From contig JACKEV010000010.1 of NCBI GenBank assembly GCA_020632795.1, forward strand, positions 223,127-287,126: DNA of 64,000 bases. Direction: 5' to 3'. A model generated the notes under the pieces. The model had not been told where the DNA came from, ran no database searches, and saw only the letters and a list, made by a program, of their open reading frames with translations. This DNA comes from Alphaproteobacteria bacterium (GTDB lineage: Bacteria > Myxococcota_A > UBA796 > CAJQPC01). A program made the translations under genes and the position numbers. Shown one piece after another: positions 3,576 through 16,925 of this stretch. Within the stretch, counting starts at the first letter, position 1, and each line of letters begins with the position of its first letter.

Positions 3576-3757
3576 GGTTCAAGACGCGGCCTCCCTCGTG
3601 CCGGGTTCCAGCCTCTGGAGGTGAGGGTTTCCTCGCTGGTCCATCCCCTTTCGATCCGGCTCTTGGGAGGCGTGCTTGGACGAAGCTGAGGCTCCTCGAT
3701 GGCATCGGCGCGGGCGCCATCGCGTGGCGCTTATCGCGACGGAAGCCTCGGGTGGTT

Positions 3758-3903
3758 GGGGGAACCTCACCAACTCCAGAAGGAGGAAACCTCTCCAGGT
3801 TTCCTCCTTCGGCCTGCTGCGCAGGCCTGACCTCCTTCCAGGGTCTGCTCGTCCATCCAGGACTCGCCAATGTCGCCCCGCCGGGGAGAGCCGTTTCGCA
3901 TGA
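3758..3903 (-). ncRNA. Candidate structured small RNA (copy A of inverted duplication), transcription direction inferred
   Basis: Conserved hairpins with covariation (see repeat feature). The overlapping 99-aa ORF 3767-4066 differs from its paralog by mostly non-synonymous changes, so protein coding is unlikely. Confidence 0.3.
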
Positions 3904-4174
3904 CAGGCTTGTGGTGCCACTCTGGAGCGCGTCCAGAGAGAAACCCCCTCTCCCCGCAATGTTCAGGTCCGAGCATCGCAACCGACGCGATCGACGGAGG
4001 TACAGCGATCTGGCGCCAAGCCTCCTCAGTAGCAGGCTGTATTTTGCATATCGAACTGGTAACCAAACACGCATAAAAGAACAGCTATGCTTGTTGGAAA
4101 CAAACGTGGATCGCTGCGTTTCGGGGATCGTGCGCAGCTTCTGGGATCCGTACCCCGACAGCTCCACAGCTCTT

Positions 4175-4318
4175 TCATGCGAGGCGGCTCTCCCCGGCGG
4201 GGCGACATTGGCGAGTCCTGGATGGACGAGCGGTCCCCGGGGGGAGGTCAGGTTTGCGAAGCGAACCGAAGGAGGGGACCTGGAGGGGTCCCCTCCTTCT
4301 GGAGTTGGTGAGGCCCCC
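4175..4318 (+). ncRNA. Candidate structured small RNA (copy B of inverted duplication)
   Basis: As copy A. The second hairpin (ggtttgcg/cgcgaacc) needs a U.G wobble that forms only in the plus-strand transcript, which suggests outward transcription from the central core. Confidence 0.3.
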
Positions 4319-4559
4319 TCCCCCACCCGACGCTCCCGTCGCGATCAGCGCCTCGCGCGTGCGGTGGCAACCCGCCCCACCTTCACCCCCACGGACCTCG
4401 AACCGAGCGCCTCATTCAGCGCCCCTGCCCCCCATCTGCACGACATCGCCACTCGCCGAGCGTCCGCCCCTCCCCAACCACCTCATCCAACCGCGCGCCG
4501 CAACGCCCCACCCCAGATCGGCCACGCCGCAGCGCCCCGCACCCCCAGGACCCCCTAGC

Positions 4560-5537
4560 ATGCTCCCCTGCCGCATCCTCGGCACCGGCGCGCACCTCCC
4601 CGGCCCCGTGCTCGACAACGAGGCCGTCGTCGCCCTGAGCCCCGGGGTGTGCGAGCCGGTCTGGATCGAGCAGTGGACGGGCATCGTGGGTCGGCACCAC
4701 GCCGGCCCCGAGGACACCGTGGCCTCCCTGGCCACCCGCGCGGCGAAGGACGCCCTGGCGAACGCCGGAGTGACCCCGGGTGCGCTCTCCCGGGTCCTGC
4801 TGGCCACCTCCACCGGGGGCGACCGGCCGGGCCCGGCCACCGCCACCCAGGTGGGCCTCGCGCTGGGGACCACCTGCGCGACGATGGACATCGCCAACGG
4901 CTGCCACGGCTGGCTGTCGGCCTTCGACCTCGCCGCGCGCCTGATCGCCACCGGCGAGGGGCCCGTCCTCATCGTGGGCGCCGAGCTGCTCAGCCGCCGC
5001 TTCCTGAACCGGCGGGACCGGCGCACCTGGCCCCTGTTCGGGGACGGCGCGGCGGCGGTGGTGCTGGGGCCTGCGCAGGGCGACGGCGGCGTCATCGCCT
5101 CGGTCCACGAGACCCGGGGCGAGCACTTCCGCGCCCTGTTCGCCCCGGGCCTGGACGACCCCGAGCGCGCCGAGGGCCCCTGGATCCGCTTCGAGGCCTC
5201 CGGCGGCGACATGCGGGAGTACGTGGAGCGCCTGCTGCCCCCGGTGCTGGAGCGCGCCCTCGCCCAGGCCGGGCTTCAGCTGGCCGACATCGACCACGTC
5301 GCGCCCCACCAGCCCAACGCCCTCTGGCTCGACCGGCTGTGCGCGCGCCTGGGCCTCGACCCCGCCCGCGTGCCCCGGATCGTGGACCAGACCGCGAACA
5401 TCCCCAGCGCGATGGTGCCCCTGGGGCTCGACGCCCTGCGGCGGGGCCCCCGCCCGCCCGCGCCTGGCGAGCACGTCCTGCTGTTCGCCATCGGCGCGGG
5501 GGTGAGCCTGGGGGCGATGGTGCTGCGTGTCGACTGA
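4560..5537 (+). CDS. 3-oxoacyl-ACP synthase III (FabH/KAS III)-like condensing enzyme
   Basis: MLPCRILGTGAHLPG...; Cys (NGCHGW), His (HQPN), Asn (TANIPSA) triad present. Internal ATG at 4560 of track ORF 4254-5537; the upstream extension is Pro-rich junk. Confidence 0.8.
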   Translation: MLPCRILGTGAHLPGPVLDNEAVVALSPGVCEPVWIEQWTGIVGRHHAGPEDTVASLATRAAKDALANAGVTPGALSRVLLATSTGGDRPGPATATQVGLALGTTCATMDIANGCHGWLSAFDLAARLIATGEGPVLIVGAELLSRRFLNRRDRRTWPLFGDGAAAVVLGPAQGDGGVIASVHETRGEHFRALFAPGLDDPERAEGPWIRFEASGGDMREYVERLLPPVLERALAQAGLQLADIDHVAPHQPNALWLDRLCARLGLDPARVPRIVDQTANIPSAMVPLGLDALRRGPRPPAPGEHVLLFAIGAGVSLGAMVLRVD

Positions 5538-6285
5538 GGGCCCTGGAGACCCCGCCTTCCTCGACCGGGTCCAGCCGGTGTTCGAGCGCATCGCCCGGGT
5601 CCACGACTACCGCTGCGTGGGCCTGGAGCACCTCCCCGACGGGCCCGCGATGCTGGTCGGCTACCACGGCCGCCCGGCGCTCGACGCCTTCCTGCTGGGC
5701 TTCCTGCTGCGCAAGCACACCGGTGCGGCGCCCCGGGCGGTCACCCACCGGGTCCTGACCCGCATCCCCCGGGTGCGGCGCTGGGTGCAGGGCTTCGGCA
5801 TGGTCGTCGGGTCCCGGGACGAGCTGGCGGCCGCCGCCGCCCGGGGCGAGCGCCTGCTGGTCCTGCCCGGCGGGGCCCGGGAGTGCTTCCGCTCCAGCCG
5901 GGTGCGCTACCAGCTCGACTGGGGGGAGCGGCGGGGCTACGCCCGGCTGGCCCTTCGGCTGGGCCTGCCCATCGTGCCCTTCGCCACCGCGGGGGTGGAC
6001 GAGCTGTACCACGTCATCGGCGACGGCTACCGGATCTCCAAGGCGCTGACCGGGACCGAGGCGCTGCCTCTGTGCCTGCCGCTGGGGCACCGCAGGCTGC
6101 CCTTCGGGCCCCCCCGCCCGGTCCCGCTGCACCAGCACGTCGGCGCCGCTGTGGAACCGTACGGCCAAGCTGAGGATCCCGACGCCGTCGCCGCCCTCGA
6201 CGCCCGGGTGCGCGCCCGGGTGCAGGCCCTGCTGTCCGAGGCGCTGGCCCGACCGCTGTGCTCGAATCAGGGTTGGACGTTGTAG
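5527..6285 (+). CDS. Lysophospholipid/1-acyl-glycerol-3-phosphate acyltransferase family (PlsC/LPLAT-like)
   Basis: GTG start overlapping the upstream stop; LPLAT-like architecture (...LVGYHGRPALDAFLLGFLL...). Confidence 0.65.
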   Translation: MSTEGPGDPAFLDRVQPVFERIARVHDYRCVGLEHLPDGPAMLVGYHGRPALDAFLLGFLLRKHTGAAPRAVTHRVLTRIPRVRRWVQGFGMVVGSRDELAAAAARGERLLVLPGGARECFRSSRVRYQLDWGERRGYARLALRLGLPIVPFATAGVDELYHVIGDGYRISKALTGTEALPLCLPLGHRRLPFGPPRPVPLHQHVGAAVEPYGQAEDPDAVAALDARVRARVQALLSEALARPLCSNQGWTL

Positions 6286-6345
6286 GATGGCCCGTTATCC
6301 GACCCTCTGGTCACCCTCCGGGGTTCTCTGGGAAGTGGAGCCACC

Positions 6346-7155
6346 TTGAGCGGAACGTGGGCGCTGATCCTGGGCTGTACGCAGGGCGCAGGCGGCGCGA
6401 TCGCCAGCCGCCTGCTCTCCGAAGGGCTGCTGGACGTCATCGGCTTCCATCGGGGCAACCACCCGGACGCCGCCGCCGCGCTGACCGCGCTCGCCGCGCG
6501 CTCCGGCCGTCGCTGCGTGCTCATCGAGGGGGACGCCGGGCGCCTCGACACCCTGCCCCAGCAGGTGGAGCGGGTGCGTGAGGCGCTCGGAGAGGAGGAG
6601 CAGCTCACCCTGCTCATCCACGCCTGCGCCGACGCCTCCATCGGGCTGGTCGCCTCCGAGGACCCCCGCGCCCAGCTCCACCCCCGCCAGATCCTCAAGA
6701 CCTTCGAGGTGATGGCCCACTCCTTCCTGTTCTGGGGCCAGGCCGTGGTCACCGGCGGGCTGATGGCGCGGGGCGGGCAGATCATCGGCTTCCCCAACAC
6801 CCTGGACGACAAGGTGGTGCGCGGCTTCTGCGCGGTCAGCGCGTCCAAGGCGGCGCTGACCGCCTACGTGCGCCACATGTCGGTGGAGCTGGCCCCCTAC
6901 GGCGTGCGGGTGAACGCCGTGCGCTTCGGCGCCACCCCCACCCACGCCTTCCGCAAGATGCCCAACTTCGAGGGGATCATGGATCAGGTCCGCCGCATCA
7001 ACCCGATGGACCGCACCACCTCCCCCGAGGACGTCGCGGACATGGTCACGCTGATGCTGGACCGCCGGGCCGCCTGGCTCAACGGCGCGGTCATCAACCT
7101 CGACGGCGGTGAGCAGCACGGCATGGCCGAGGGCATCTTCGGAGCGCGCCCGTGA
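6346..7155 (+). CDS. Short-chain dehydrogenase/reductase (enoyl- or ketoacyl-ACP reductase-like)
   Basis: TTG start; SDR-like Gly-rich N-terminus LILGCTQGAGGAIA. Stop overlaps the next gene's start (GTGA). Confidence 0.7.
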   Translation: MSGTWALILGCTQGAGGAIASRLLSEGLLDVIGFHRGNHPDAAAALTALAARSGRRCVLIEGDAGRLDTLPQQVERVREALGEEEQLTLLIHACADASIGLVASEDPRAQLHPRQILKTFEVMAHSFLFWGQAVVTGGLMARGGQIIGFPNTLDDKVVRGFCAVSASKAALTAYVRHMSVELAPYGVRVNAVRFGATPTHAFRKMPNFEGIMDQVRRINPMDRTTSPEDVADMVTLMLDRRAAWLNGAVINLDGGEQHGMAEGIFGARP

Positions 7156-8162
7156 GCGTCTCGGTCCTGGGCTGCGGCCACGCTCTGCCTGCGCAGGTGG
7201 TGCCCTCGTCCGAGGTCGAGGCCCTCGCCGGCTTCCCCGAGGGCTGGGCGGCGCGGCACCTCGGCATCGCCACCCGCGGCCGCATGGCGCCCGAGGAGAC
7301 CTCCTGGGACCTGGGCACCCGCGCCTGCCAGGGCGCGCTGGAGGCCGCCGGGGTCGCCGCCGCCGAGGTCGACCTGCTCATCGCCCACGCCTCCTGCCCC
7401 GAGCTGTTCTACCCCGACCCCGCCTGGTACATCGCCCGGGACCTGGGCCTGGGCGAGGCCACCCGGGTGATGGGCCTGCGGGCCCAGTGCGCGGGCTTCG
7501 TCGCCGCACTGGACCTGGCCGACGCCTACCTCTCCACCGGGCGGTGCCAGCGCGCCCTGGTGGTCTGCGCCGAGCGCATGGTGGAGCCCGCCCTGGGCTA
7601 CGACCGCTCCGCGCTCCTGTTCGGCGACGCCGCCGCGGCGGTGGTGCTCGGCCCGGGGCCGGGCCTGCGCTACCTGGAGCTGCGCCAGCAGCCCGCCTGG
7701 GCCGATCGCTGCGTGATGACCGCCGGTCCGATGGACCCGGCCTCCTGGCCCGGCATCTGCCCGGAGCTGCCCGAGCACTGGGCCGAGGGCGAGCGCGCCG
7801 TGCCCGACCACGGCCGCGTGGCCTTCTGGGAGGGCGGCCACATCTTCCGCAACGCCGTCGAGGGCATGGGAGAAGCCACCCTGCGCGCCCTGGAGGCCAC
7901 CGGGCTCGGCCCGGACGCGGTCGACCACTACCTCTACCACCAGGCCAACGCCAAGATCCTCAAGAGCATCCTGCGGAACTTCAGCCTCCCGGCCGACCGG
8001 GTGCGCAGCAACGTCGAGCGGGTCGGCAACGTCTCCTCGGCCTCGATCCCCCTGCTGCTGTCCGAGGGCGTGGCCACCGGGGAGATCCGCGCGGGCCAGC
8101 GGGTGCTGCTGGGCGCGTTCGGATCCGGTTACGTCCTGGGCACGGCAATCCTGGAGCTGTGA
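7152..8162 (+). CDS. Second 3-oxoacyl-ACP synthase III (FabH)-like condensing enzyme
   Basis: MSVSVLGCGHALP...; Cys (QCAGF), His (YHQAN), Asn (GNVSSASIP). GTG start overlapping the upstream stop. Confidence 0.8.
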   Translation: MSVSVLGCGHALPAQVVPSSEVEALAGFPEGWAARHLGIATRGRMAPEETSWDLGTRACQGALEAAGVAAAEVDLLIAHASCPELFYPDPAWYIARDLGLGEATRVMGLRAQCAGFVAALDLADAYLSTGRCQRALVVCAERMVEPALGYDRSALLFGDAAAAVVLGPGPGLRYLELRQQPAWADRCVMTAGPMDPASWPGICPELPEHWAEGERAVPDHGRVAFWEGGHIFRNAVEGMGEATLRALEATGLGPDAVDHYLYHQANAKILKSILRNFSLPADRVRSNVERVGNVSSASIPLLLSEGVATGEIRAGQRVLLGAFGSGYVLGTAILEL

Positions 8163-8168
8163 GAGACC

Positions 8169-8396
8169 TTGGCACCCGCTGACCCCGTGCTGCACGCCCT
8201 GGAGCGCCTCTTCGGCGACCGCGGCGTAGACCTCGCCGCCCTGCGCGCCGAGGACTGCCTGGCCGACGCCCTGGACTGGGACTCGATGGACGTCGTCGAC
8301 CTGGGCATGGAGCTGCGCCGCCACCACGGCGTCGAGATCCCCGAGGACATCGACCAGATCGACACCATCGCGAAGCTACGCGCGTTCTTCCCCTGA
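8169..8396 (+). CDS. Acyl carrier protein
   Basis: 75 aa; LDWDSMDVVDLGMELRRHHGVEIPED with the phosphopantetheine-Ser DSM motif. TTG start. Confidence 0.7.
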   Translation: MAPADPVLHALERLFGDRGVDLAALRAEDCLADALDWDSMDVVDLGMELRRHHGVEIPEDIDQIDTIAKLRAFFP

Positions 8397-9167
8397 CGGT
8401 CGGCGCTTCGTGCAGGCCAGCAGGTAGAAGTACCGGGTGAGCTGGGTCACGGAGATCGCCTCCGCGTCCGCCGGCAGCAGGGCGACGGGCGCCTGCGGGC
8501 GCCGGTCGTACCAGGTCATCGCCCGGAACAGGCCCCGATGGACCAACGAGCGGCGCAGGGCCGGGTCGAGCTGCTCGTCCACGATGACCACCGGCGCCCC
8601 GGGCCGGGCGACCCGCAGCAGCTCCGCCAGGGCCCGGCGCTTGTCCCGCCAGTTGTTCACCGCGCCGACGTGCACCACCCCGTCGAAGGTGTCGTCGGGG
8701 AACGGCAGGGCGTGGACGTCCGCCAGCGCCAGCCAGGCGTCCACCCCCGCCCGCGCGAGCTTGCGCGCCCCCAGCCGCAGCATGCCCGGGGAGAGGTCCA
8801 CCCCCACCAGCGCCGCGTCCGGGAAGCGCGCCGCGAGCCGCAGCAGCTCCTGGCCCGTGCCGCAGCCCAGGTCGAGCAGCCGCCGAGGCGGCGCGCGGAG
8901 GCGCTCGGCCAGGGCGTCGGCGATGCGCGCCCGAACGGCGTCCTCGTCGAAGCCGTCGATGGGCGCCAGCAGGTAGCGCAGCGCGGGGTCGTGCAGGCGC
9001 CCGAGGCGATCGTAGACGACCCGCAGCAGCCGGTCGGTGCCCCACACCGCGGCCTCATCGACCAGGTCGGGCAGCCCGTCCACCTCGCCCCACCGCCGCC
9101 CGCAGCCCGCGCAGGGCACCTGCCATGGGGCTCCACAGGACGGGCATTGAAGAGGCGGCGTGGGCAC
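8376..9167 (-). CDS. Class I SAM-dependent methyltransferase with N-terminal CxxC-CxxC zinc ribbon
   Basis: LDLGCGTGQ motif; N-terminal CPSCGAPW...CAGCG. 3' end overlaps the ACP gene by ~21 nt (convergent). Confidence 0.75.
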   Translation of the reverse strand: MPTPPLQCPSCGAPWQVPCAGCGRRWGEVDGLPDLVDEAAVWGTDRLLRVVYDRLGRLHDPALRYLLAPIDGFDEDAVRARIADALAERLRAPPRRLLDLGCGTGQELLRLAARFPDAALVGVDLSPGMLRLGARKLARAGVDAWLALADVHALPFPDDTFDGVVHVGAVNNWRDKRRALAELLRVARPGAPVVIVDEQLDPALRRSLVHRGLFRAMTWYDRRPQAPVALLPADAEAISVTQLTRYFYLLACTKRRPSGEERA

Positions 9168-9231
9168 GGCGCTCCGGTGGTGGCGGGTCGCTCAACCGTC
9201 CCTTAGGTTGCTTGTCTTGGAGGTGCACCTC

Positions 9232-10239
9232 ATGGGTCTCGACTATCGCGTCCGCTGCTGCCCCGACGGCCTCGTCACCGACCGTCGGCGGCGCATCCGC
9301 GTGCTGGACTGCACGATCCGCGACGGCGGCATCTGCAACGACTGGCAGTTCAGCGACGATCTCGTGCAGCGCACCTTCCAGGCCCTCGGCCAGTCCGGCG
9401 TCGACTACATGGAGATCGGCTACCGCACCACCGACGGCCTGTTCGACCGCGCCAAGGTCGGCCCCTGGCGCTTCTGCGACGAGGACGACCTGCGCCGGGT
9501 CACCCGCCCCGGGGGCCGCATGAAGCTCTCGGTGATGGTGGACGTCGGGCGGGTCGACCCCGCCGACATCCCCCCGGCCGCCGACAGCGTCATCGACGTC
9601 ATCCGCATCGCGACCTACGCCCACCAGATGGACGACGCCCTGCGCCTGCTCGACCACGCCCAGGCCCAGGGCTACGAGACCTTCATGAACGTCATGGCGG
9701 TCTCCACGTTGGAGCCGCTGGAGGTCGACGCCTTCCTCAAGCGCCTGGCGGTCAGCGGGGTCGACAACGTCGCGCTGGTCGACAGCTTCGGGGCGCTGTT
9801 CCCCTACCACGTGCGCTACCTCGTCCGGAAGTACATGAACTACCTCGGCGAGTCCATCCGCGTGGGGGTCCACCTGCACAACAACCAGCAGCAGGCCTTC
9901 GCCAACTCCATCGCCGCCATCGACGAGGGCGTGGACTTCGTGGACGCGACCATCCACGGCATGGGCCGGGGCGCGGGCAACTGCCCGCTGGAGCTGCTGC
10001 TCTTCTACCTCGACAACCCCCGCTACGACGTGCGCCCGCTGCTCGACATCATCGACGACTTCGCCGAGATGCGCGACGAGCTGCGCTTCGGCTACCACCT
10101 GCCCTACGCCATCACCGGCTACTTCAACATGCACCCCCGCAGCGGCATCGACCGCATGGGCGGCCCCGACCGCTACCAGTGCCGGGACATGTACGAGAAG
10201 CTCGCCCGGCGCCTGGATCAGGCCGCGAAGGCGGGGTGA
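9232..10239 (+). CDS. DRE-TIM metallolyase / HMGL-like (pyruvate carboxyltransferase domain) family protein
   Basis: RVLDCTIRDGG signature near the N-terminus. ATG at 9232 preceded by GGAGGTG; track ORF starts earlier at 9160. Confidence 0.7.
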   Translation: MGLDYRVRCCPDGLVTDRRRRIRVLDCTIRDGGICNDWQFSDDLVQRTFQALGQSGVDYMEIGYRTTDGLFDRAKVGPWRFCDEDDLRRVTRPGGRMKLSVMVDVGRVDPADIPPAADSVIDVIRIATYAHQMDDALRLLDHAQAQGYETFMNVMAVSTLEPLEVDAFLKRLAVSGVDNVALVDSFGALFPYHVRYLVRKYMNYLGESIRVGVHLHNNQQQAFANSIAAIDEGVDFVDATIHGMGRGAGNCPLELLLFYLDNPRYDVRPLLDIIDDFAEMRDELRFGYHLPYAITGYFNMHPRSGIDRMGGPDRYQCRDMYEKLARRLDQAAKAG

Positions 10240-10287
10240 AGAAATCCCTTCACGCGCCGCCGATTCGTGTCATACTGGACATAGACG

Positions 10288-10329
10288 GACCCCGAATCGG
10301 TAGCTAGCCTGCGCACCGAGTTCGGGGTC
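10288..10329. terminator. Candidate bidirectional terminator hairpin between convergent genes
   Basis: gaccccgaa...ttcggggtc 9-bp stem followed by tttcc, between the plus gene ending at 10239 and the minus gene ending at 10348. Confidence 0.35.
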
Positions 10330-10347
10330 TTTCCACTTCAGGGCGCC

Positions 10348-12177
10348 CTACCGGAACGCCACCGCCCCGCGCTCGCCGGACATGACACCGGCGGTCTTGA
10401 TGAGGTCGAGCAGCTCGGCGTCCTCGGCGGTGCCGCGGCTGGCCTTCCGGGTGAGGTCGTAGAGCTGGGCGTAGGTGACCTCGGCGGTGTAGGGGCTGCC
10501 GCGGAGGAGCTCGGCGAAGGTGGCGGAGGCCACGGCGACGCGGAAGTCCTTGGAGGCGCTGGCGAAGGTCTCGCCCAGGGCGTCGGTGTGGAGGACGGTA
10601 GCCCACTCGCGGGCGGCGGAGTCGGGGCCGGGGCGCTTGGCGCGGAGGCGCACGGTGGCCAGCTCGTCGTGGTAGCCATCCTTGAGGATGACGTCGTAGA
10701 GGGCGGTGACGGTGTGCCCGGCGCCGATCTCACCGGCGTCGACGCGGTCGTTGCGGAAGTCGCGGTCGGCGATGTCGCGGTTCTCGTAGCCCACCAGGCG
10801 GTAGGCCATGACCGCCTCGGGGTTGAACTCGACCTGGATCTTGACGTCCTTGGCGATGACCTGGAGCGTGCCGCCCAGCTTCTCGCCAAAGACCTCGCGG
10901 GCCTCGTCGAAGGTGTCGATGTAGAAGTAGTTGCCGTCGCCCTTGTTGGCGAGCTGCTCCATCATCGTGTCCTGGTAGTTGCCCATCCCGAAGCCGATGG
11001 TCGACAGGGTGATGCCCTCCTCGGCGTGCTGGGTGATGGTCCGCAGGATCTCATCGTGGGAGGTCCGACCGATGTTCGCGTCGCCGTCCGAGAGCACCAC
11101 CACCCGGTTGACGTGGCCGTGCTCGTAGCTGTTCGATGCCATCTGGTAGGCCAGCTCCATGCCTGAGCCCATCGCCGTCCCGCCCCCGGTGTCCAGCCCC
11201 TCGATCGCCGCCAGGATGGTCCGGCTGTCCGCCGCGCTCGTCGGCTCCAGCACCACCCGCGTCGAGCCCGCATACGTCGCGATGGCGACGGTGTCCTCCT
11301 CCTGGAGGTTCCGCGTCAGGAACGCCATCGAGCGCTTCGCCAGCCCGATCTTGTCCCCGCTCGACATCGAGCCCGACGTGTCGATCAGGAACGTCAGGTG
11401 CACCGGCTTCCGCTCCGCCTGGTCCAGCTCCATCCCCTTCACACCCACCCGCACCAGCGCGTGGCTCTCGTCGAACGGGTTCGGCGCCGCCTCCATGTGC
11501 ACCGCGAACGGCGCACCGCCGCTCTCACGCCCCGGAGGCGCGTAGCCGTAGTCCATCGCGTTGACGAACTCCTCCACCCGCACCGACGCCGTCGGCGGCA
11601 GCGCACCCTCCCGCAGCTTCCGACGCGCGATCGCGTAGCTCGCCGTGTCCACGTCCACCGAGAACGTCGAGTACCGGTCCTGCTCCGTCAGCGTCATGTC
11701 GTTGATGCCGTAGTGCGTGTACCCCTCCGAGTTGCTCGCGATCGGCTGGCCGACGGTGGGCTGGTTGTTGTCGTAGCGGCCGCCGGGCGGAGGCGGCGTG
11801 GGGTTCTCGGCGAAGCGGTACTCGGCGACGTCGCCGCCGGAGATGATCCCGGCGGTCGGCGCCGGCCCGCTGCTGGCCTTGGGGCGCATCGCCACATCGC
11901 CGCGCGGCCCGACGGGGATGAGCATGGGCTCCTCGGGCGCATTGGCCCAGTCGTCCTCGCCCCGGTCGGCCGGATCCGCGTCCGGGGCGTCGACGATGCG
12001 CTGCGAGAGGGCCTCGCGCTGGATGGACTCGGCCTCCTTCTTGTCGGCGCTGCGCTCGCCCTCGGCGGAGGCGGGCTCGGCCTCGTAGTACTCCTCGTCG
12101 GGGGCGTCGAGGGTCCGCATGCAGCCGGAGAGGGCGAGGACGGCGACGACGGAGGGGATGAGGGCGCGCAGCGGCAT
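10348..12177 (-). CDS. von Willebrand factor A domain lipoprotein (YfbK/DUF3520-like)
   Basis: Signal peptide and lipobox LALSGC. VWA MIDAS motif DTSGSM with the C-terminal region typical of VWA/DUF3520 proteins. Confidence 0.8.
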   Translation of the reverse strand: MPLRALIPSVVAVLALSGCMRTLDAPDEEYYEAEPASAEGERSADKKEAESIQREALSQRIVDAPDADPADRGEDDWANAPEEPMLIPVGPRGDVAMRPKASSGPAPTAGIISGGDVAEYRFAENPTPPPPGGRYDNNQPTVGQPIASNSEGYTHYGINDMTLTEQDRYSTFSVDVDTASYAIARRKLREGALPPTASVRVEEFVNAMDYGYAPPGRESGGAPFAVHMEAAPNPFDESHALVRVGVKGMELDQAERKPVHLTFLIDTSGSMSSGDKIGLAKRSMAFLTRNLQEEDTVAIATYAGSTRVVLEPTSAADSRTILAAIEGLDTGGGTAMGSGMELAYQMASNSYEHGHVNRVVVLSDGDANIGRTSHDEILRTITQHAEEGITLSTIGFGMGNYQDTMMEQLANKGDGNYFYIDTFDEAREVFGEKLGGTLQVIAKDVKIQVEFNPEAVMAYRLVGYENRDIADRDFRNDRVDAGEIGAGHTVTALYDVILKDGYHDELATVRLRAKRPGPDSAAREWATVLHTDALGETFASASKDFRVAVASATFAELLRGSPYTAEVTYAQLYDLTRKASRGTAEDAELLDLIKTAGVMSGERGAVAFR

Positions 12178-12281
12178 GAGGGGCTCCTTTGAACCGGGTT
12201 TCGTCCGTCGAACGCGGCCGGGGCGACGGCGCTTACACCGGGCCCTGAGATTTTATTCCGAGGCGCGGCAGGCCCTTGGCG

Positions 12282-12953
12282 CTAGTTGCCTCGCCGCTCC
12301 GCGCGGCTGCGGCTGCGGAAGCCCATGTCGACACCCAGCGCCCAGGCCGGGCCGGCGTGGCGGGCGGGCTGGGCGTAGAGGTCGGCGGAGAAGCCCAGCA
12401 CGAAGCGCTTGGGGTGCAGCTCGTAGCGGGCGCCCAGGCCGGCGTAGGCGTCCAGGCGGGTGAGCCGGGCGTCCTCCAGCTCGGGAGCGTCGATGGCGTT
12501 GCGCTGCCGCCGCAGGATCAGCGCCGGGCCCCCCATGATCGAGTGGATCGGGGAGAGCTCGAACTCCCCGAGCACCGGGGCGCGCAGCTCCACCGAGCCC
12601 TGCCCGGCGACCGTGCCCCCGACCAGGGGCGCCCAGGTGCCCGCCAGGCCCGGCGCGACCGCCAGGTGCAGGCGGTCGTTGTGGTAGAAGCGGTAGCGCA
12701 CGTCGACCGCCGCGCCGACCAGGTACAGGCGCGCCCCCATGTCCAGGTTGTCGGCCAGGCCGAAGCGGGCGACCACCTCGCCCTGGGGCAGCGGAAGGGT
12801 GCCGATGCTCAGGGGGTTGCCCCCGCGCTGGAGCGAGCCGGCCCCGGCGATCTGGAGCTGCCCCGGCTCCAGGGTCTTCGCCCCGGTCACCGTGCTCAGG
12901 GTGGAGCAGGCCGTGCCCAGCGCGAGCCCGGCCACTGCGAGCAGCGTCCTCAC
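12282..12953 (-). CDS. Hypothetical secreted/outer-membrane-like protein
   Basis: GTG start VRTLLAVAGLALGTACS; start overlaps the upstream stop as GTGA. The track ORF extends upstream with junk. Confidence 0.5.
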   Translation of the reverse strand: MRTLLAVAGLALGTACSTLSTVTGAKTLEPGQLQIAGAGSLQRGGNPLSIGTLPLPQGEVVARFGLADNLDMGARLYLVGAAVDVRYRFYHNDRLHLAVAPGLAGTWAPLVGGTVAGQGSVELRAPVLGEFELSPIHSIMGGPALILRRQRNAIDAPELEDARLTRLDAYAGLGARYELHPKRFVLGFSADLYAQPARHAGPAWALGVDMGFRSRSRAERRGN

Positions 12954-13462
12954 CACCGCACCCCCAGGCCCAGGGAGGTGTCGTAGTCCCAGGCGCGCAG
13001 GCCCCGGCTGGTGGTGCCGACCTGCCACTGCCAGGCCAGCCGGCGCCCGAGGGGGCCGTCGAGGGCCACCCGGACCCGCGCGCCGGGCTCCAGCACCACG
13101 AAGCCCTGGTCGGCGCCGTTCCAGCCCACCTGCCCCGCGCGCGCGCTCAGGGCGAGGCCCGCGCCAGCGTGGAAGCGCAGCGGCCGGGTGCCGACGACCC
13201 ACTCGGCCAGGGCCGCTGCGCGGACCATGTGGACGTCGAAGTCGTACAGCGATGTGCTCTTGGCGCGGCGGGTCCAGCCCAGCTCGCCGGCGATCCCGAA
13301 GGGACCGGGCCCGTAGTCCAGCCAGGCCCCCAGCGTGGGCGCCAGGGTGTGCCGCGCGGGGCTCTGGACCGCGATCACGCCCCCGGAGAGCCCCGCGGCG
13401 CCGGTGCGCACCGGGTCGTCGGGGGCCGCGAGGGCGGCGGTGATGACGGCGAGCGCGATCAC
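12950..13462 (-). CDS. Hypothetical outer-membrane beta-barrel-like protein (C-terminal Trp)
   Basis: VIALAVITAALAAPD signal; Gly/aromatic-rich, ends ...LGLGVRW. Proposed GTG start at 13462 overlapping the upstream stop (GTGA). Confidence 0.45.
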   Translation of the reverse strand: MIALAVITAALAAPDDPVRTGAAGLSGGVIAVQSPARHTLAPTLGAWLDYGPGPFGIAGELGWTRRAKSTSLYDFDVHMVRAAALAEWVVGTRPLRFHAGAGLALSARAGQVGWNGADQGFVVLEPGARVRVALDGPLGRRLAWQWQVGTTSRGLRAWDYDTSLGLGVRW

Positions 13463-14505
13463 CCGCAGGGCTCCGGGGCGGTGTTGTCCGGGAAGCGGAA
13501 GGCGTAGGCGTCGCACATCGACAGGCCCAGGCTGGCGGAGTCGGCGTAGGCGTGCTCGACGAGCAGCTCGGCCCAGCGGTCGGGGGCGCTCCAGGCCTCC
13601 TCGGCCGCCCAGTCCTCCAGCGCGCCGATGACGTGCTCCAGGGCGGTCTCCGGGCTGGTGCGCTCCCGCAGGTCCCAGGCCAGGGAGGCGTAGACGGTGC
13701 CCAGGGCGTAGGGGTCGAAGTTCAGCGGGTCGCCGCTGGGGTAGAGCGCCGGGCTGGCCTGCCAGTCGCCGGTCACGTCCCGGCTCTGCATGCTCGGGAT
13801 GGAGATGACGAAGAAGTTCGGGTCGTCCAGGGTGAGGGTGGCCAGCATGTCGGCGAAGCCCTCATCCAGGGCCGAGACCGACGAGGAGGTGTCGTCGTCC
13901 AGGCTGTCGTAGGGGGCGGAGGCCTTGGGGTCCCCCACCGTGACGGCGTGGAACAGCGCGTGGCCGAACTCGTGCCGGATGACGCCGGGGTTGGCCGCCA
14001 GCGGGATGACCTCCTCCACCATGTCCGGCAGCAGCATGAACATGTGGACGCCGCCGGAGACATACGCCGCATTCTCGCCCGAGAAGAAGTCCTCGGTGAC
14101 GAAGATGGGCTGGTAGGCGAAGTTGATGGGGAAGATCCCGCTGAGGTCGATCCCTGCCTCGGTGAGCTGGCCCCGGGCGGCGGCGAGGGTGTGGTAGTAG
14201 GTCCACAGGATCAGGCCGTCCTCGTCCAGCGGGACGCCCATGCCGTCGCGCACGACGTAGCGCAGGTCGATGGCACCCCCCTCGACGTACTCGACGTCGA
14301 GGTCCTCGCTCAGCAGGCTGATGCGGAAGAAGCCGCCCCGGAAGCCCCGGCCCAGCTCCCCGTCCATGTGGCGCGGGTCGGTGAGCGCGGGCATGGCGCG
14401 GGCGAAGGTGCCGTACTCGCCGTCCTGCCGGTCGACCACCAGGAAGCGGTCGGGCACCTGGGAGGAGACGCAGCCAGCGCCCAGCAGGGGGAGGAGCAGG
14501 ATCAC
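13459..14505 (-). CDS. Putative zinc metalloprotease lipoprotein (HExxH)
   Basis: Lipobox LLGAGC at the N-terminus; HEFGHAL zinc-binding motif. Confidence 0.7.
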   Translation of the reverse strand: MILLLPLLGAGCVSSQVPDRFLVVDRQDGEYGTFARAMPALTDPRHMDGELGRGFRGGFFRISLLSEDLDVEYVEGGAIDLRYVVRDGMGVPLDEDGLILWTYYHTLAAARGQLTEAGIDLSGIFPINFAYQPIFVTEDFFSGENAAYVSGGVHMFMLLPDMVEEVIPLAANPGVIRHEFGHALFHAVTVGDPKASAPYDSLDDDTSSSVSALDEGFADMLATLTLDDPNFFVISIPSMQSRDVTGDWQASPALYPSGDPLNFDPYALGTVYASLAWDLRERTSPETALEHVIGALEDWAAEEAWSAPDRWAELLVEHAYADSASLGLSMCDAYAFRFPDNTAPEPCG

Positions 14506-14514
14506 CCCGAGAGC

Positions 14515-15011
14515 CTAGCGCAGCGCCGGGTCGACGTCCACCAGGCTGAGCCCCGCCGCCCACGACAGGCCGCTGAGACCGGGCTCATCGGAATCGTGGA
14601 GCAAGCGATCGACCCGACAGGCCGCGAGGGGGCGACCGGCGTCCCGCAGCCGGGCGGCCAGGCGGCGGGCGTCGTCGGGGTCGAACAGGCGCGCGCCGGG
14701 GTCCAGGCCGGTCAGGGCGAGCACCAGGGCCTCGGCGCGCTCCACCTCCCCCAAAGCGGTCAGGGCGTCGGCGGCCAGCAGGCGGGTGTAGGCGGTGGCG
14801 TCGGCCTCGGCGCGGGCCAATTCGTCGGGGTGGACGAGCTGGGGGGTGTGCCGCAGCAGCTGCTCCAGGAAGCCCGGCCAGCCGGCGTCGTGGCCGCTGC
14901 GCCACAGGGGCCCGGCGTCCTCGGGGTGGCCGCCCTCGACGAGGGCGAGCCCTCGCTCCAGCAGCCACTCCGGTCTGGCGATTCGGTCGGACACAGGTTG
15001 AGAGTAGATCA
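14515..15011 (-). CDS. Hypothetical protein
   Basis: Internal ATG (MIYSQPVSDRIARPEW...) of track ORF 14515-15135; coding-like codon usage. Confidence 0.4.
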
Positions 15012-15062
15012 TGAGCCCTCGCCCGGCTAAGGACCCCCGAACGCCCCGAACCCGTCCACGAG

Positions 15063-16925
15063 GTGGCCATGACCCAGCCGGATCCCTCCGCAACCGCGCC
15101 AGAGGCCCAGAAGGAGCGCCTCTACACCCCCGCACCGGATGAGGCGCAGCTCTCGGTCCGGGCGGTGATCGCGGGCTGCCTGCTGGGGGGCGTCGTGGCG
15201 GCCATGAACATCTACCTGGGCCTGCGCACCGGCTGGTCGGTGGGCGGCTCGCTGATCGCGGCCATCCTGGGCTTCTCGGTCTTCGCGGGCCTGGGGCGCG
15301 CGGGGGTGCTGGGCAAGCCCTACACCGTGCTGGAGGCCAACATCACCCAGACCGCGGGCTCGGCGGCGGGCAGCATGACCTCGGCGGCGGGGCTCCTGGC
15401 GGCCATCCCGGCGATGGGCATGCTCGGCTACGATTTCAGCTACCTGGAGCTGACCGCGTGGGCCTTCGCGGTGGCCTACCTGGGTGTGTTCTACGCGGTG
15501 CCCCTGCGCCGACAGATGGTGCTCATCGAGAAGCTGCGCTTCCCCACCGGCACGGCCACCGCCGAGGTCATCGTGGCGATGTTCTCGTCGGGCGGCGAGG
15601 CCATCCGCAAGGCGCGGGCCCTGGTGTGGTGGAGCGTCATCGCGGGCGGCTTCACCCTGCTGACCTACTTCGTGCCGGTCATCGAGCAGCCCCCGCTGGA
15701 GGTCATCGGCCTCAGCGCCCTCACGGTGTGGAGCCTCTCCCTGCTGATCAGCCCGCTGATGACCGGGGCGGGGATCCTCATCGGCCCTCGGGTCGGGACC
15801 TCGCTGCTGCTCGGTGCCCTGGCCGGCTGGGCGGTGCTGGGGCCGTATGCGGCCTCCCAGGGGTGGGCCGGCGGCCCGTCGTTCGACGAGGCCCAGGGCA
15901 TCTGGGTGGCCGGCAAGACCATGAGCTACGGCGAGGGCATCCGGGGCTGGATCCTGTGGCCGGGCGTGGCGATCATGGTGGGCGACGCGCTGACCTCCCT
16001 GGCGCTGTCCTGGCGCACCATCCTCAACACCTTCACCGGGTTCGGGGGCAAGGGTGAGCTGGACGGGGACGACCACCCCGAGCTGATCCCCAACTCGTGG
16101 TGGATCGGCGGGCTGGGCATCGCCTCCATCGCGACCGTGGGCGTGTCCTGGGCCCTCTTCGAGATCCCGCCGTTGTTCAGCATCCTGGCCATCGCGTTGT
16201 CCAGTGTGCTGGCCACCATCGCGGTGCGCTCCACCGGCGAGACCGACATCAACCCCATCGGCGGCATGGGCAAGGTCACCCAGCTCGTGTACGGCGGGCT
16301 CGCGCCGGGGCAGATCCCCACCAACCTGATGGCGGCGGCCATCACCGGCGCCGGGGCGTCCCAGGCCGGTGACATGATGCAGGACCTCAAGACCGGGCAC
16401 CTGCTGGGGGCCTCGCCCCGGGGCCAGTTCAAGGCCCAGCTCGTCGGCATCGGCGCCGGCATCCTGTTCTGCATCCCCATCTACAAGCTCTTCGACACCG
16501 CCTACGAGATCGGCGGCGAGGAGCTGCCGGCCCCCGCCGCCCACGCCTGGCGGGCGATGGCCGAGCTGCTCTCCAAGGGGGTCGAGGCGCTGCCGGTGGG
16601 CGCCCAGGGCGCGGTGCTCGGCGGGCTGGCCTTCGGCATCGCCATCCCGATCCTCCGAAAGGTCCTGCCCAAGGCGGCGGCGGCCTGGCTGCCCAGCGCG
16701 CTGGCCTTCGGCATCGCCTTCATCGTGCCGGCGTACTACTCCATCGCGATGTTCCTGGGCTCGATGCTGCTGCTCGGGTGGAAGCGCGTGGCCCCCGAGC
16801 AGTGCGACAAGCTGTCCTTCGCGGTGGCCTCGGGCCTGATCGCGGGCGAGGGCCTGATGGGCATCGTCAAGGCCATCCTGACCCTGCTGGAGGTGCCGAC
16901 CCTCGCCCAGATGATGGGCGGATAG
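15063..16925 (+). CDS. OPT-family oligopeptide transporter
   Basis: 620 aa, polytopic membrane protein with OPT-superfamily-like sequence throughout. Confidence 0.85.
   Translation: MAMTQPDPSATAPEAQKERLYTPAPDEAQLSVRAVIAGCLLGGVVAAMNIYLGLRTGWSVGGSLIAAILGFSVFAGLGRAGVLGKPYTVLEANITQTAGSAAGSMTSAAGLLAAIPAMGMLGYDFSYLELTAWAFAVAYLGVFYAVPLRRQMVLIEKLRFPTGTATAEVIVAMFSSGGEAIRKARALVWWSVIAGGFTLLTYFVPVIEQPPLEVIGLSALTVWSLSLLISPLMTGAGILIGPRVGTSLLLGALAGWAVLGPYAASQGWAGGPSFDEAQGIWVAGKTMSYGEGIRGWILWPGVAIMVGDALTSLALSWRTILNTFTGFGGKGELDGDDHPELIPNSWWIGGLGIASIATVGVSWALFEIPPLFSILAIALSSVLATIAVRSTGETDINPIGGMGKVTQLVYGGLAPGQIPTNLMAAAITGAGASQAGDMMQDLKTGHLLGASPRGQFKAQLVGIGAGILFCIPIYKLFDTAYEIGGEELPAPAAHAWRAMAELLSKGVEALPVGAQGAVLGGLAFGIAIPILRKVLPKAAAAWLPSALAFGIAFIVPAYYSIAMFLGSMLLLGWKRVAPEQCDKLSFAVASGLIAGEGLMGIVKAILTLLEVPTLAQMMGG

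What the first reader, a model, noticed from the sequence alone, without database searches (positions are those of the whole stretch)
3758..4318. Inverted-duplicated structured RNA-like element with covarying SD/anti-SD hairpins between murA and the lipid cassette
Two ~145-bp arms (3758-3903 and 4175-4318) are reverse complements at ~85% identity around an AT-richer ~270-bp core at 3904-4174. Each arm has a 13-bp hairpin whose 5' strand is GAAGGAGG plus three more bases, and whose 3' strand ends CCUCCUUC, which is identical to the anti-Shine-Dalgarno tail of 16S rRNA. The two copies differ by paired compensatory changes that keep the stems intact: gaaggaggAAacc/ggtTTcctccttc against gaaggaggGGacc/ggtCCcctccttc. 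A second hairpin behaves the same way: ggcctgc/gcaggcc against ggtttgcg/cgcgaacc. The overlapping small ORFs (3767-4066 minus, 4087-4311 plus) differ mostly by non-synonymous changes, so selection looks to be on RNA structure rather than on a protein. The U.G wobble in copy B forms only in the plus-strand transcript, which fits divergent outward transcription of two paralogous sRNAs from the central core. I do not recognise this as a known RNA family or insertion sequence.
Basis: seen in the sequence. Interest (0 to 1): 0.75.

Follow-up and report, generated by a model that had tools for sequence, protein, structure and literature searches.

The report
Orphan inverted repeat at inversion junction
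A real but single-copy, non-coding 637-bp inverted repeat with terminator-type hairpins fills new spacer DNA left where a 25-kb chromosome segment flipped in an uncultured Myxococcota-like bacterium; nothing found here places it in a conserved RNA family or shows that it acts as a ribosome-binding-site switch.

Summary
The inverted repeat is real and larger than reported: arms 3721-3917 and 4161-4357 (197 nt, 84%, no gaps) around a 243-nt low-GC core. Each arm has a 13-14-bp hairpin and a 7-bp hairpin. Four stem pairs changed on both sides and still pair. A fair test gives P of about 0.01, not overwhelming.

No relative was found: nothing in Rfam, in collection scans with two exact core words, in plasmids or phages, or among 5.8 billion proteins. 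No frame looks coding.

The main new fact is context. In relatives murA abuts dnaG-rpoD, and the lipid operon directly follows a kinase-cyclase gene. Here segment 4560-29373 is inverted. The element lies in a 984-nt spacer at one junction; the other junction is 7 nt.

GAAGGAGG...CCTCCTTC hairpins occur at least 119 times across phyla. 85% sit just after the end of a long ORF, so they are generic terminator-type stems rather than a special SD/anti-SD device.

Best reading, at modest confidence: a young, lineage-specific inverted duplication whose terminator-type hairpins punctuate transcription between murA and the relocated operon. Two divergent sRNAs, a MITE-like element and an invertible promoter are not excluded. 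Interest is low to moderate.

The parts
3576..3720 (+). Left part of the lineage-specific spacer, between the murA stop (3575) and arm A. Non-coding, 66% GC.
   Evidence: In relatives the murA-dnaG spacer is only 8-67 nt. No similarity to those spacers. The fold is not better than shuffles, z = -0.76.
3720..3724 (.). TCGCG, a possible 5-bp direct repeat (target-site duplication candidate), left copy.
   Evidence: Read directly from the sequence. The same pentamer is at 4353-4357. It is ambiguous because CGCG is itself palindromic and can equally be read as the outermost 4 nt of the inverted repeat.
3721..3917 (.). Arm A of the inverted repeat (197 nt, 64.5% GC).
3779..3810 (.). Hairpin 1 of arm A: GAAGGAGGAAACCT / CTCC / AGGTTTCCTCCTTC, 14 perfect pairs.
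3811..3827 (.). Hairpin 2 of arm A: GGCCTGC / TGC / GCAGGCC, 7 pairs.
3831..3838 (+). Third CCTCCTTC copy, present in arm A only (arm B has CCTCCCCC at this place).
3847..3893 (.). 47-nt block identical in both arms (arm A copy). It contains a GTCC-N5-GGAC mini-hairpin and GGCGA-N4-GGCGA (outward strand).
   Evidence: longest identical run, P = 0.002.
3918..4160 (.). Unique core, 243 nt, 56% GC, with a 44% GC minimum at 4022-4121. Promoter-like by composition only.
   Evidence: The two other comparable GC dips in the window lie just upstream of genes. No sigma-70 or sigma-54 consensus match.
4161..4357 (.). Arm B of the inverted repeat (197 nt, 70% GC).
   Evidence: Positions 4273 onward are confirmed 100% by an independent assembly (L041).
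4185..4231 (.). 47-nt invariant block, arm B copy.
   Evidence: Mirror position of 3847-3893 in the gap-free repeat.
4251..4267 (+). Hairpin 2 of arm B: GGTTTGC / GAA / GCGAACC. It has 7 pairs including one U.G on the + strand, which is C.A on the - strand.
4268..4299 (+). Hairpin 1 of arm B: GAAGGAGGGGACC(T) / GGAG / (G)GGTCCCCTCCTTC. It has 13 perfect pairs plus a U.G on the + strand only.
4353..4357 (.). TCGCG, right copy of the possible 5-bp direct repeat.
   Evidence: Read from the sequence. Ambiguous, as for the left copy.
4358..4559 (+). C-rich, G-poor 202-nt stretch (GC skew down to -0.49) running up to the ATG of the first lipid-operon gene. No Shine-Dalgarno sequence is visible before that ATG.
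   Evidence: no coding signature.
4560..29373 (.). Segment inverted relative to relatives, running from the lipid operon start to the dnaG start. The element lies at its left junction.
29374..29380 (.). The other inversion junction: 7 nt (ccctccc on the - strand) between the kinase-cyclase stop and the dnaG ATG. No repeat copy here.

Best explanation
The element is a young, lineage-specific inverted duplication of a roughly 200-nt non-coding module, lodged in spacer DNA at the left junction of a roughly 25-kb inversion.

Shown:
- The inversion separated murA from dnaG-rpoD.
- It also cut a lipid-synthesis operon (KAS III, acyltransferase, SDR, KAS III, ACP) away from the kinase-AAA-cyclase gene that it overlaps or closely follows in relatives.
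- The operon's first gene now has a new ATG and 984 nt of new upstream DNA.
- The other junction is only 7 nt.

Inferred: the duplication arose by a replication or repair template switch (fold-back), or possibly by insertion of a foldback-type element.

What has been kept since then is a pair of adjacent stem-loops in each arm. The large one is of the same type as the stem-loops that follow genes in many phyla.

Inferred mechanism: on the + strand, which is the sense strand of both flanking genes, arm A's hairpins end or stabilise the murA transcript. The low-GC core supplies initiation signals. Arm B's hairpins form a structured leader, or partial stop, in front of the relocated operon.

A transcript that reads through both arms could instead fold into a roughly 200-bp duplex. 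The SD/anti-SD look is a side effect of a purine-rich strand paired to a pyrimidine-rich strand.
For: Context:
- In relatives murA is followed at once by dnaG and rpoD.
- In relatives the lipid operon overlaps or closely follows the Pkinase-AAA_16-Guanylate_cyc gene.
- In the window dnaG and rpoD lie at 29373-25525 on the - strand, and the full-length kinase-cyclase gene is at 29381-34723 on the - strand.
- Re-inverting 4560-29373 restores both ancestral adjacencies at once.
- The KAS III start is ATG CTC CCC here, against GTG AGG CTC CCC overlapping the upstream stop in relatives.

Orphan status:
- No other copy in the window or in the loci fetched from relatives.
- No match to a 20-nt word from the invariant block in 185,579 species genomes.
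- An 18-nt word from the same block gave only chance matches in JGI metagenomes.
- None in plasmids or phages.
- No Rfam family.
- No protein resembling any of the six frames.

Non-coding.

Hairpin type: at least 119 GAAGGAGG...CCTCCTTC hairpins in other phyla, and 85% lie just after the end of a long ORF.

Hairpins kept:
- Four compensated pairs, P about 0.008.
- All 10 stem changes are transitions.

Strand:
- Both one-sided hairpin changes are G.U on the + strand.
- So are the two in the arm-closing helix of arm A.
- 14 of 32 inter-arm mismatches are G.U on the + strand, against 8 on the - strand.

Core: its GC dip matches the dips upstream of other genes in the window.

Reality of the sequence: an independent Logan assembly is identical from 4273 to 8711.
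Against: - No promoter consensus in the core and no U-tract terminator call on either strand.
- Arm A's hairpin starts 204 nt after the murA stop, which is far for a terminator.
- A strong hairpin pair in front of the operon would hinder its expression unless it is bypassed or regulated.
- The invariant 47-nt block is not explained by a terminator role. It needs either gene conversion or a sequence-specific partner.
- The origin by template switch is an inference. No precursor sequence was found, and a 197-nt copy placed 243 nt away is long for that mechanism.
- The strand evidence is at most three independent events (P about 0.1-0.25).
- Only one genome carries the element, so nothing can be tested by comparison.
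Confidence: 0.4

Rival explanations
1. Two paralogous small RNAs. Each arm would be the body of an sRNA of about 130-200 nt, transcribed outward from the core. The invariant 47-nt block would act as seed or binding region, followed by hairpin 2 and then hairpin 1 as terminator. Arm B's RNA could double as the operon leader. The free GAAGGAGG or CCUCCUUC copies could act on ribosome-binding sites or mimic them.
For: - Stems vary but stay paired, while a single-stranded block is invariant. This is the pattern expected of an RNA gene.
- Read outward, the order is block, hairpin 2, hairpin 1, then a U-containing tail (UGGAGUUGGUG).
- With arm A's outward-strand fold as the fixed structure, fewer predicted pairs are broken in arm B than expected (6 against 11.9, P = 0.016).
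- The low-GC core lies where promoters would be.
- There is weak resemblance to the CCUCC-motif sRNAs ar14 and sX13.
Against: - No promoter match on either strand.
- Homology between the arms ends before any shared promoter.
- The Rfam scores are far below gathering (22.3 against 58.8; 17 against 50).
- No relative was found in any collection searched.
- Arm A's outward RNA would run antisense into the murA 3' end with no obvious target.
- The covariation amounts to two tandem events and can be produced at DNA level (PMC8794818).
- If the arm-closing helix is real, arm A pairs better on the + strand, which is its inward strand.
Confidence: 0.2
2. A MITE-like or foldback non-autonomous mobile element, or the two ends of a decayed transposon brought together by internal deletion. 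It would have inserted into the permissive spacer, or helped cause the rearrangement. The hairpins would be transposase-recognition or structural features.
For: - Long terminal inverted repeats, a lower-GC non-coding core, and a total of about 632-637 bp.
- A possible 5-bp direct repeat TCGCG immediately outside the repeat (3720-3724 and 4353-4357).
- It is absent from the corresponding sites in relatives.
- It sits exactly at a synteny breakpoint.
- Differences between the arms are clustered, as expected if patches were converted from other family copies.
Against: - Only one copy in 64 kb.
- Exact-word scans with two words from the invariant block found no relative in 185,579 species genomes or in JGI metagenomes. 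Plasmids and phages gave no match either.
- No transposase, integrase or recombinase among about 37 ORFs scanned across the window.
- 197-nt terminal repeats at 84% identity are atypical of bacterial IS elements and MITEs (my own knowledge).
- The direct repeat is ambiguous because CGCG is palindromic.
- The second inversion junction carries no copy. This argues against replicative intramolecular transposition or recombination between two copies as the cause of the inversion.
Confidence: 0.2
3. An invertible promoter (inverton). The 243-nt core would flip between the arms by recombination, switching the lipid operon on and off.
For: - Inverted repeats flank a low-GC, promoter-like segment directly upstream of a lipid (surface or membrane) operon.
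- A 47-nt perfectly identical block in both arms could serve as the crossover site.
- An independent assembly breaks inside arm B.
Against: - No invertase or recombinase gene in the 64-kb window.
- The arms are about 200 nt. Known invertons are mostly under 300 nt in total (PMC11602134) and have short repeats.
- No promoter was found in the core.
- No read-level evidence is available.
Confidence: 0.05
4. Small proteins or a type I toxin-antitoxin-like pair. Convergent small ORFs would start at the conserved ATG in each arm (3870-4076 on the + strand and 4026-4208 on the - strand). Both begin MSPRRGEP after an AGGA, and one has a hydrophobic tail.
For: The invariant block holds AGGA-N7-ATG and the first eight codons. 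The 60-aa ORF has a hydrophobic stretch.
Against: - No frame has coding composition.
- Changed codons are mostly non-synonymous.
- None of the six frames has any relative among 5.8 billion proteins.
Confidence: 0.03
5. Assembly artefact: a chimeric join or a foldback created by the metagenome assembler.
For: The source is a metagenome-assembled genome. The independent Logan contig stops at 4273, inside hairpin 1 of arm B, so the left part of the element has no second witness.
Against: - Arms that are 16% diverged with compensated stem changes are not what assembler foldbacks look like; those are near-identical.
- The longest run the two arms share is the 47-nt invariant block. Its nearest edge, 4231, lies about 40 nt inside the Logan contig's end at 4273, and the run shared next to hairpin 1 is only 22 nt. 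So the contig end is not explained by a shared k-mer if Logan used k = 31 (my recollection, not checked).
- Both inversion junctions keep intact genes with sensible starts and stops.
- Arm B, the leader and the operon are confirmed 100% by the independent assembly.
Confidence: 0.03

Closest known systems
Intrinsic (often bidirectional) terminator or 3'-end stem-loops of GC-rich bacteria
   Same: - A perfect 13-14-bp GC-rich stem with a 4-6-nt loop, purine-rich 5' strand and pyrimidine-rich 3' strand.
- The identical outer 8 bp (GAAGGAGG/CCTCCTTC) occur in at least 119 loci of other phyla, 85% of them within 120 nt downstream of a long ORF end.
- Arm A lies downstream of murA.
   Different: - No U-tract.
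- It starts 204 nt after the murA stop.
- It is followed directly by a second hairpin.
- It is present twice in inverted orientation, with one copy in front of an operon rather than behind a gene.
MITEs and foldback elements (non-autonomous transposable elements)
   Same: Terminal inverted repeats, a lower-GC non-coding middle, a length of a few hundred bp, a possible short flanking direct repeat, and presence or absence between related genomes.
   Different: Single copy as far as can be seen. The repeats are about 200 nt and only 84% alike. No related autonomous element or transposase was found. No other copy turned up in any collection searched.
Inverted repeats and stems created or repaired by replication template switching (quasipalindrome-associated mutation; PMC8794818, PMC7202029)
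   Same: A reverse-complement copy close to its source; perfect stems; multi-base changes matched on both stem strands; clustered multi-nucleotide differences.
   Different: The events described are mostly tens of nucleotides. Here the copy is 197 nt with a 243-nt spacer. All stem changes here are transitions, which is also the signature of RNA-level compensation through G.U intermediates.
sRNAs with CCUCC or C-rich anti-SD-like motifs (alphaproteobacterial ar14, RF02344; Xanthomonas sX13, RF02232)
   Same: Several stem-loops and CCUCC-type motifs. These are the best, though insignificant, Rfam matches.
   Different: Scores are far below gathering. In those families the C-rich motifs sit in loops, as the consensus structure lines show. 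Here CCUCCUUC is buried in the stem. The taxon is different, and no related sequence has been found.
Invertible promoters (invertons; PMC11602134)
   Same: Inverted repeats around a promoter-like segment upstream of an envelope- or lipid-related operon.
   Different: The repeats are ten times longer than usual. No recombinase is nearby, and no evidence of two orientations exists.

Membership tests
Any Rfam 15 family (best: ar14 RF02344, sX13 RF02232) | Covariance-model score at or above the family's gathering score | tested here: not met
   ar14 scores 22.3 bits against 58.8 (E = 0.13). sX13 scores 17 against 50. At gathering thresholds the whole window yields only RNase P RNA and one tRNA.
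Small regulatory RNA gene | Own promoter upstream of the conserved body | tested here: not met
   No sigma-70-type site in 3500-4600. No TGGCAC-N5-TTGC site in the element. Arm homology ends at 3917/4161, with unrelated sequence beyond. The scans cover only these two consensus types.
Small regulatory RNA gene | Conservation of sequence and structure in related genomes | tested here: not met
   No relative found. The nearest available genomes share only 77-81% MurA identity, so close relatives could not be sampled.
Small regulatory RNA gene | A discrete transcript | not testable with these tools
   No expression data are available.
Small regulatory RNA gene | Stems kept by compensatory change | tested here: met
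   Four compensated pairs in two hairpins, and two more kept as G.U on the + strand. P is about 0.008 in the fair test. There are only two sequences, and the changes may be only two tandem events.
SD-sequestering translational switch | The sequestered SD sits 5-10 nt upstream of a start codon of a real ORF | tested here: not met
   After GAAGGAGG (4268-4275 and 3779-3786, and the complements) no ATG, GTG or TTG follows at that distance. No frame is coding. The KAS III ATG is 285 nt further on.
Intrinsic terminator | GC-rich stem-loop | tested here: met
   Stems of 13-14 bp. The same stem type lies after ORF ends in other phyla.
Intrinsic terminator | U-tract directly after the stem | tested here: not met
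   No terminator-like sites by the consensus scan. The tail is UGGAGUUGGUG outward and GGCCUGC inward.
MITE / non-autonomous transposon | Terminal inverted repeats | tested here: met
   197-nt arms reach the ends of the element, though they are far longer than usual.
MITE / non-autonomous transposon | Target-site duplication | tested here: inconclusive
   TCGCG at 3720-3724 and 4353-4357. Four of the five bases can also be read as part of the inverted repeat.
MITE / non-autonomous transposon | Multiple copies in the genome or in relatives | tested here: not met
   One copy in 64 kb. None found in the collections searched.
MITE / non-autonomous transposon | A cognate transposase or parent element with the same ends | tested here: not met
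   No transposase or recombinase domain in about 37 ORFs of the window.
Inverton (invertible promoter) | A site-specific recombinase nearby | tested here: not met
Inverton (invertible promoter) | Both orientations present in the reads | not testable with these tools
   No read-level access. The Logan contig ends at 4273, which is outside the core.
REP / REPIN | Short (about 20-40 nt) palindromes, in many copies, in inverted pairs about 100 nt long overall | tested here: not met
   No other perfect stem-loop of this kind in the window. The unit is 637 bp.

The most novel reading that the evidence does not exclude
An inverted duplication at a fresh inversion junction gave birth to a new regulatory RNA module. 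The two arms would be functional structured RNAs, either a leader or attenuator for the orphaned lipid operon plus a paralogous stand-alone sRNA, or one long + strand RNA that switches between local hairpins and a 200-bp duplex. The invariant 47-nt block would be the recognition site and the GAAGGAGG/CCUCCUUC copies would be ribosome- or SD-directed elements. This would be a caught-in-the-act example of de novo origin of a riboregulator that rewires an operon after a rearrangement.
Probability: 0.15. Interest if true: 0.55.

Novelty: new member of a known kind. Interest (0 to 1): 0.27.

Why it matters
If the modest reading is right, this is an ordinary by-product of genome rearrangement. It is still a clean example of how an inversion can split an operon from its upstream partner with base-level precision. 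Both cut genes stayed intact, one gained a new start codon, and a kilobase of new non-coding DNA with terminator-type hairpins and a promoter-like core appeared in front of the orphaned genes.

It also carries two cautions for sequence-only scanning. A purine-rich stem paired to CCUCCUU looks like an SD/anti-SD device, yet it is a common terminator-stem composition across phyla. And 'covariation' between two copies of a perfect palindrome is weak evidence, because DNA-level template switching produces the same pattern.

If the novel reading were right, it would be a rare datable case of a regulatory RNA arising by duplication at a breakpoint.

Tried and rejected
1. Known RNA family. An Rfam E-value scan of 3300-4800 and a gathering-threshold scan of the whole window gave nothing relevant.

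2. Relatives by exact DNA words.
   - A 20-mer from the invariant block found nothing in GTDB species genomes.
   - An 18-mer gave 36 metagenome loci, all chance.

3. Relatives through translated ORFs. The six frames of 3700-4380, concatenated, were searched against 5.8 billion proteins with no hit.

4. Relatives through structure.
   - The hairpin pattern in GTDB genomes gave at least 119 loci, but none shares the arm flanks.
   - L134 matched 61 nt at 79%, but the match lies inside what reads as a coding region, so it was treated as chance.
   - A covariance model of 142 nt of the arm matched only the two arms, the Logan copy, and the hairpin alone elsewhere.

5. Orthologous sites. The murA and KAS III loci of relatives lack the element and lack any inverted repeat of 45 nt or more.

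6. Mobile-element links.
   - Plasmid and phage blastn gave no match.
   - A Pfam scan of about 37 window ORFs found no transposase or recombinase.

7. Coding. Codon-position GC and synonymous/non-synonymous counts reject all frames. One frame had 15 of 32 differences at the third codon position, but this is not significant.

8. Promoters. No sigma-70 or sigma-54 consensus in the element. A near-match AGGCTG-N-TTTGCAT in the core has the wrong spacing.

9. A closed 'domain' fold for each arm. Helices other than the two hairpins are mostly broken in the other arm, so this idea was dropped.

10. Second junction. No copy or remnant of the arm lies near 29374-29800. This rejects recombination between two repeat copies as the cause of the inversion.

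11. Source genome. The source contig could not be retrieved, so the copy number in the full genome is unknown.
Full report
**1. What is in the sequence**

- The arms are 3721-3917 and 4161-4357. They are 197 nt long, align without gaps at 84% complementarity, and are separated by 243 nt.
- Nothing else in the 64-kb window comes close. The next inverted repeat is 55 nt at 76%.
- The arm, its invariant block and its hairpin each occur exactly twice in the window.
- The core is the joint lowest-GC stretch of the window: 44% at 4022-4121, against 72% overall.

Each arm carries two adjacent stem-loops.
- Hairpin 1 is 3779-3810 in arm A and 4268-4299 in arm B, with 14 and 13 perfect pairs.
- Hairpin 2 is 3811-3827 in arm A and 4251-4267 in arm B, with 7 pairs.

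**2. How much the 'covariation' is worth**

The arms differ at 32 positions, 22 of them transitions.
- Ten differences fall in the 42 stem positions, and all ten are transitions.
- Four stem pairs changed on both sides and stay Watson-Crick.
- Two stem pairs changed on one side only. These pair as G.U on the + strand and are C.A on the - strand.

The significance depends on how the test is set up.
- With only the 21 named pairs, at least four compensated pairs has P of about 9e-5.
- A fairer test fixes the structure as the MFE fold of one arm alone, keeps the observed clustering of differences, and allows for the fact that two transitions on a pair usually restore pairing. This gives P of about 0.008.
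- When RNAalifold is allowed to choose the structure, P is 0.01-0.06.

The four pairs are two tandem doubles, so they may be only two events.

Helices other than the two hairpins are mostly broken in the other arm.

Two further non-random features stand out.
- A 47-nt block (3847-3893) is identical in both arms (P = 0.002).
- Adjacent differences are in excess (P = 0.003).

Template switching during replication is documented to create reverse-complement copies and to fix stems through multi-base compensatory changes (PMC8794818, abstract read; see also PMC7202029). The pattern is therefore not proof of selection on an RNA. The all-transition spectrum in the stems does lean towards RNA-level compensation through G.U intermediates.

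**3. Not coding**

Real genes here have GC3 of 0.98-0.99 and GC2 of about 0.5. No frame of the arms, core or the 202-nt leader exceeds GC3 of 0.77. Changed codons are mostly non-synonymous in every frame. A concatenation of all six translated frames found no relative among 5.8 billion protein clusters.

**4. No relatives and no known family**

- Rfam gives nothing above threshold. The best matches are ar14 (22.3 bits, gathering 58.8) and sX13 (17 bits, gathering 50), driven by CCUCC motifs.
- A 20-mer from the invariant block is absent from 185,579 species genomes.
- An 18-mer gave only chance matches in JGI metagenomes.
- Plasmids and phages gave no match.
- A covariance model of 142 nt of the arm finds only the two arms and an independent copy of arm B.

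**5.

MurA places the source among uncultured Myxococcota-like MAGs, although NCBI labels it 'Alphaproteobacteria bacterium'. The closest available relatives share only 77-81% MurA identity.

In those relatives:
- murA is followed at once by dnaG, rpoD and a zinc-ribbon gene on the same strand, with a murA-dnaG spacer of 8-67 nt.
- The lipid operon (KAS III, acyltransferase, SDR, KAS III, ACP, HMGL-like) directly follows a roughly 1750-aa Pkinase-AAA_16-guanylate-cyclase gene on the same strand. This holds in three independent relatives. The two genes overlap by 4 nt in two of them and lie 12 nt apart in the third.

In the window:
- dnaG, rpoD and the zinc-ribbon gene lie at 29373-20978 on the minus strand.
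- The full-length kinase-cyclase gene is at 29381-34723 on the minus strand, only 7 nt from the dnaG ATG.

Re-inverting 4560-29373 restores both ancestral adjacencies at once, so a single inversion of about 25 kb explains the arrangement.

The cut was precise.
- Both genes at the kinase/operon junction are intact.
- KAS III now begins ATG CTC CCC, where relatives have GTG AGG CTC CCC overlapping the upstream stop.
- One junction is 7 nt.
- The other is the 984-nt spacer 3576-4559, made of 145 nt, the 637-nt inverted repeat, and a 202-nt C-rich stretch.

Neither the spacer nor the repeat has any counterpart at the second junction or in the relatives' loci.

An independent Logan assembly of another run reproduces 4273-8711 exactly. 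It ends inside hairpin 1 of arm B. So arm B, the leader and the operon are real. The left half of the element rests on the MAG assembly alone.

**6. The 'SD/anti-SD' hairpin**

- 77 of 120 hits have perfectly complementary 13-nt arms.
- 85% lie within 120 nt downstream of the end of a long ORF, against 30% for random positions.
- 32% lie between two convergent ORF ends, against 4% for random positions.

This is the placement of terminators. A palindromic stem halves the number of independent bases, so such counts are expected rather than remarkable. None of these loci shares anything with the arms beyond the hairpin.

In the element no start codon follows GAAGGAGG at initiation distance, and the nearest real start is 285 nt away. 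I therefore read the SD/anti-SD look as a by-product of stem composition.

It remains true that 5 of the 11 GAAGGAGG occurrences in the window are in the element, and that arm A has a third, unpaired CCTCCTTC.

**7. Which strand**

Both one-sided stem changes in arm B pair as G.U only on the + strand. The two G.U pairs of the arm-closing helix predicted for arm A also exist only on the + strand. In a hypothetical inter-arm duplex, 14 of 32 mismatched positions are G.U on the + strand, against 8 on the - strand.

Each item is weak.

A + strand read-through RNA could fold into a roughly 200-bp duplex (-475 kcal/mol, z = -19.9).

**8. Promoters, recombinases, transposases**

- No sigma-70-type or terminator-type consensus site lies in 3500-4600.
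- The three exact sigma-54-type matches in the window are elsewhere.
- The two other GC dips as deep as the core lie just upstream of genes. Composition alone therefore makes the core promoter-like, which is an inference.
- About 37 ORFs across the window contain no transposase, integrase, invertase or reverse transcriptase domain.
- A pentamer TCGCG flanks the repeat on both sides (3720-3724 and 4353-4357). It could be a target-site duplication, but four of its bases can equally be the outermost bases of the repeat.

**9. Verdict**

Its central claims are not established, namely an SD/anti-SD device and two divergent paralogous sRNAs.

The best-supported account is a young, lineage-specific inverted duplication in the spacer created by a 25-kb inversion. 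It carries terminator-type hairpins on either side of a promoter-like core, and these now punctuate transcription between murA and the relocated lipid operon (confidence about 0.4).

Rivals and their confidences:
- an sRNA pair, 0.2
- a MITE-like element, 0.2
- an inverton, 0.05
- small peptides, 0.03
- an assembly artefact, 0.03

It is a new instance of a familiar kind of thing. Interest is low to moderate.

Noticed in passing
window 4560-29373, junctions 3576-4559 and 29374-29380: A segment of about 25 kb is inverted relative to all available relatives. The inversion splits murA from dnaG-rpoD and splits the lipid operon from its upstream kinase-AAA-cyclase gene. One junction is just 7 nt, and both cut genes are intact.
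   Followed up: yes
window 4556-4562: The first lipid-operon gene (KAS III-like) starts ATG CTC CCC. Relatives start GTG AGG CTC CCC, overlapping the stop of the upstream gene. So a new start codon was acquired at the breakpoint. No Shine-Dalgarno sequence precedes it, and a stop-free frame ends at TAG just 1 nt before the ATG.
   Followed up: partly
window 4358-4559: A strongly C-rich, G-poor 202-nt stretch (GC skew down to -0.49) lies between arm B and the operon start. It is non-coding by composition and its function is unknown.
   Followed up: partly
P0001 / P0121 (source record): NCBI names the source MAG 'Alphaproteobacteria bacterium'. However, its MurA, KAS III and gene order are closest to MAGs labelled Myxococcota, and two sister MAGs (GCA_020632815.1, GCA_020632765.1) carry the same label. 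The label is probably wrong.
   Followed up: partly
L044-L162 (GTDB species genomes): Hairpins with the stem GAAGGAGG...CCTCCTTC are common after ORF ends in many phyla. Some are conserved orthologous sites with near-identical flanks, for example Opitutae L056/L072/L098/L137, or L102/L103/L155. I could not test whether this stem is commoner than other 8-mers among terminators.
   Followed up: partly
window 2057-2071, 51219-51233, 60515-60529 (+ strand): Three exact sigma-54-type promoter matches (TGGCAC-N5-TTGC). Those at 2057-2071 and 51219-51233 lie 30-200 nt upstream of a + strand gene start (murA and the gene starting at 51270). The match at 60515-60529 lies about 227 nt upstream of the next + strand ORF (60756-63005).
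   Followed up: no
window 3378-3390 and 3589-3601: A perfect 13-nt direct repeat GCCTCCCTCGTGC, once inside the murA 3' end and once just after its stop. No similarity extends around it.
   Followed up: partly
L041 (Logan SRR12358676), equal to window 4273-8711: An independent assembly of the operon ends exactly inside hairpin 1 of arm B. The cause is unknown: it may be a coverage drop at a strong GC hairpin or population heterogeneity.
   Followed up: no
GCA_020632815.1 (L043, and the P0122 row): This relative may carry two paralogous copies of the lipid operon: P0123 on contig 69, and P0122 on a 467,570-bp contig, the same length as its murA contig. The window shows only one.
   Followed up: no
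window 8376-9167 (- strand): A methyltransferase gene lies between the cassette's ACP gene and the HMGL-like gene. It is also present, between the cassette and the HMGL-like gene, in relative L163 but absent in L042 and L043.
   Followed up: no
window 20475-20927 and 25416-25488 (- strand): RNase P RNA (class A, 236 bits) and one tRNA lie inside the inverted segment.
   Followed up: no
L001 7345-7387: In one relative the short murA-dnaG spacer holds a terminator-like hairpin, ACAACAAGAAGGCG...CGCCTTTGTTGT. Its stem composition is reminiscent of hairpin 1.
   Followed up: no
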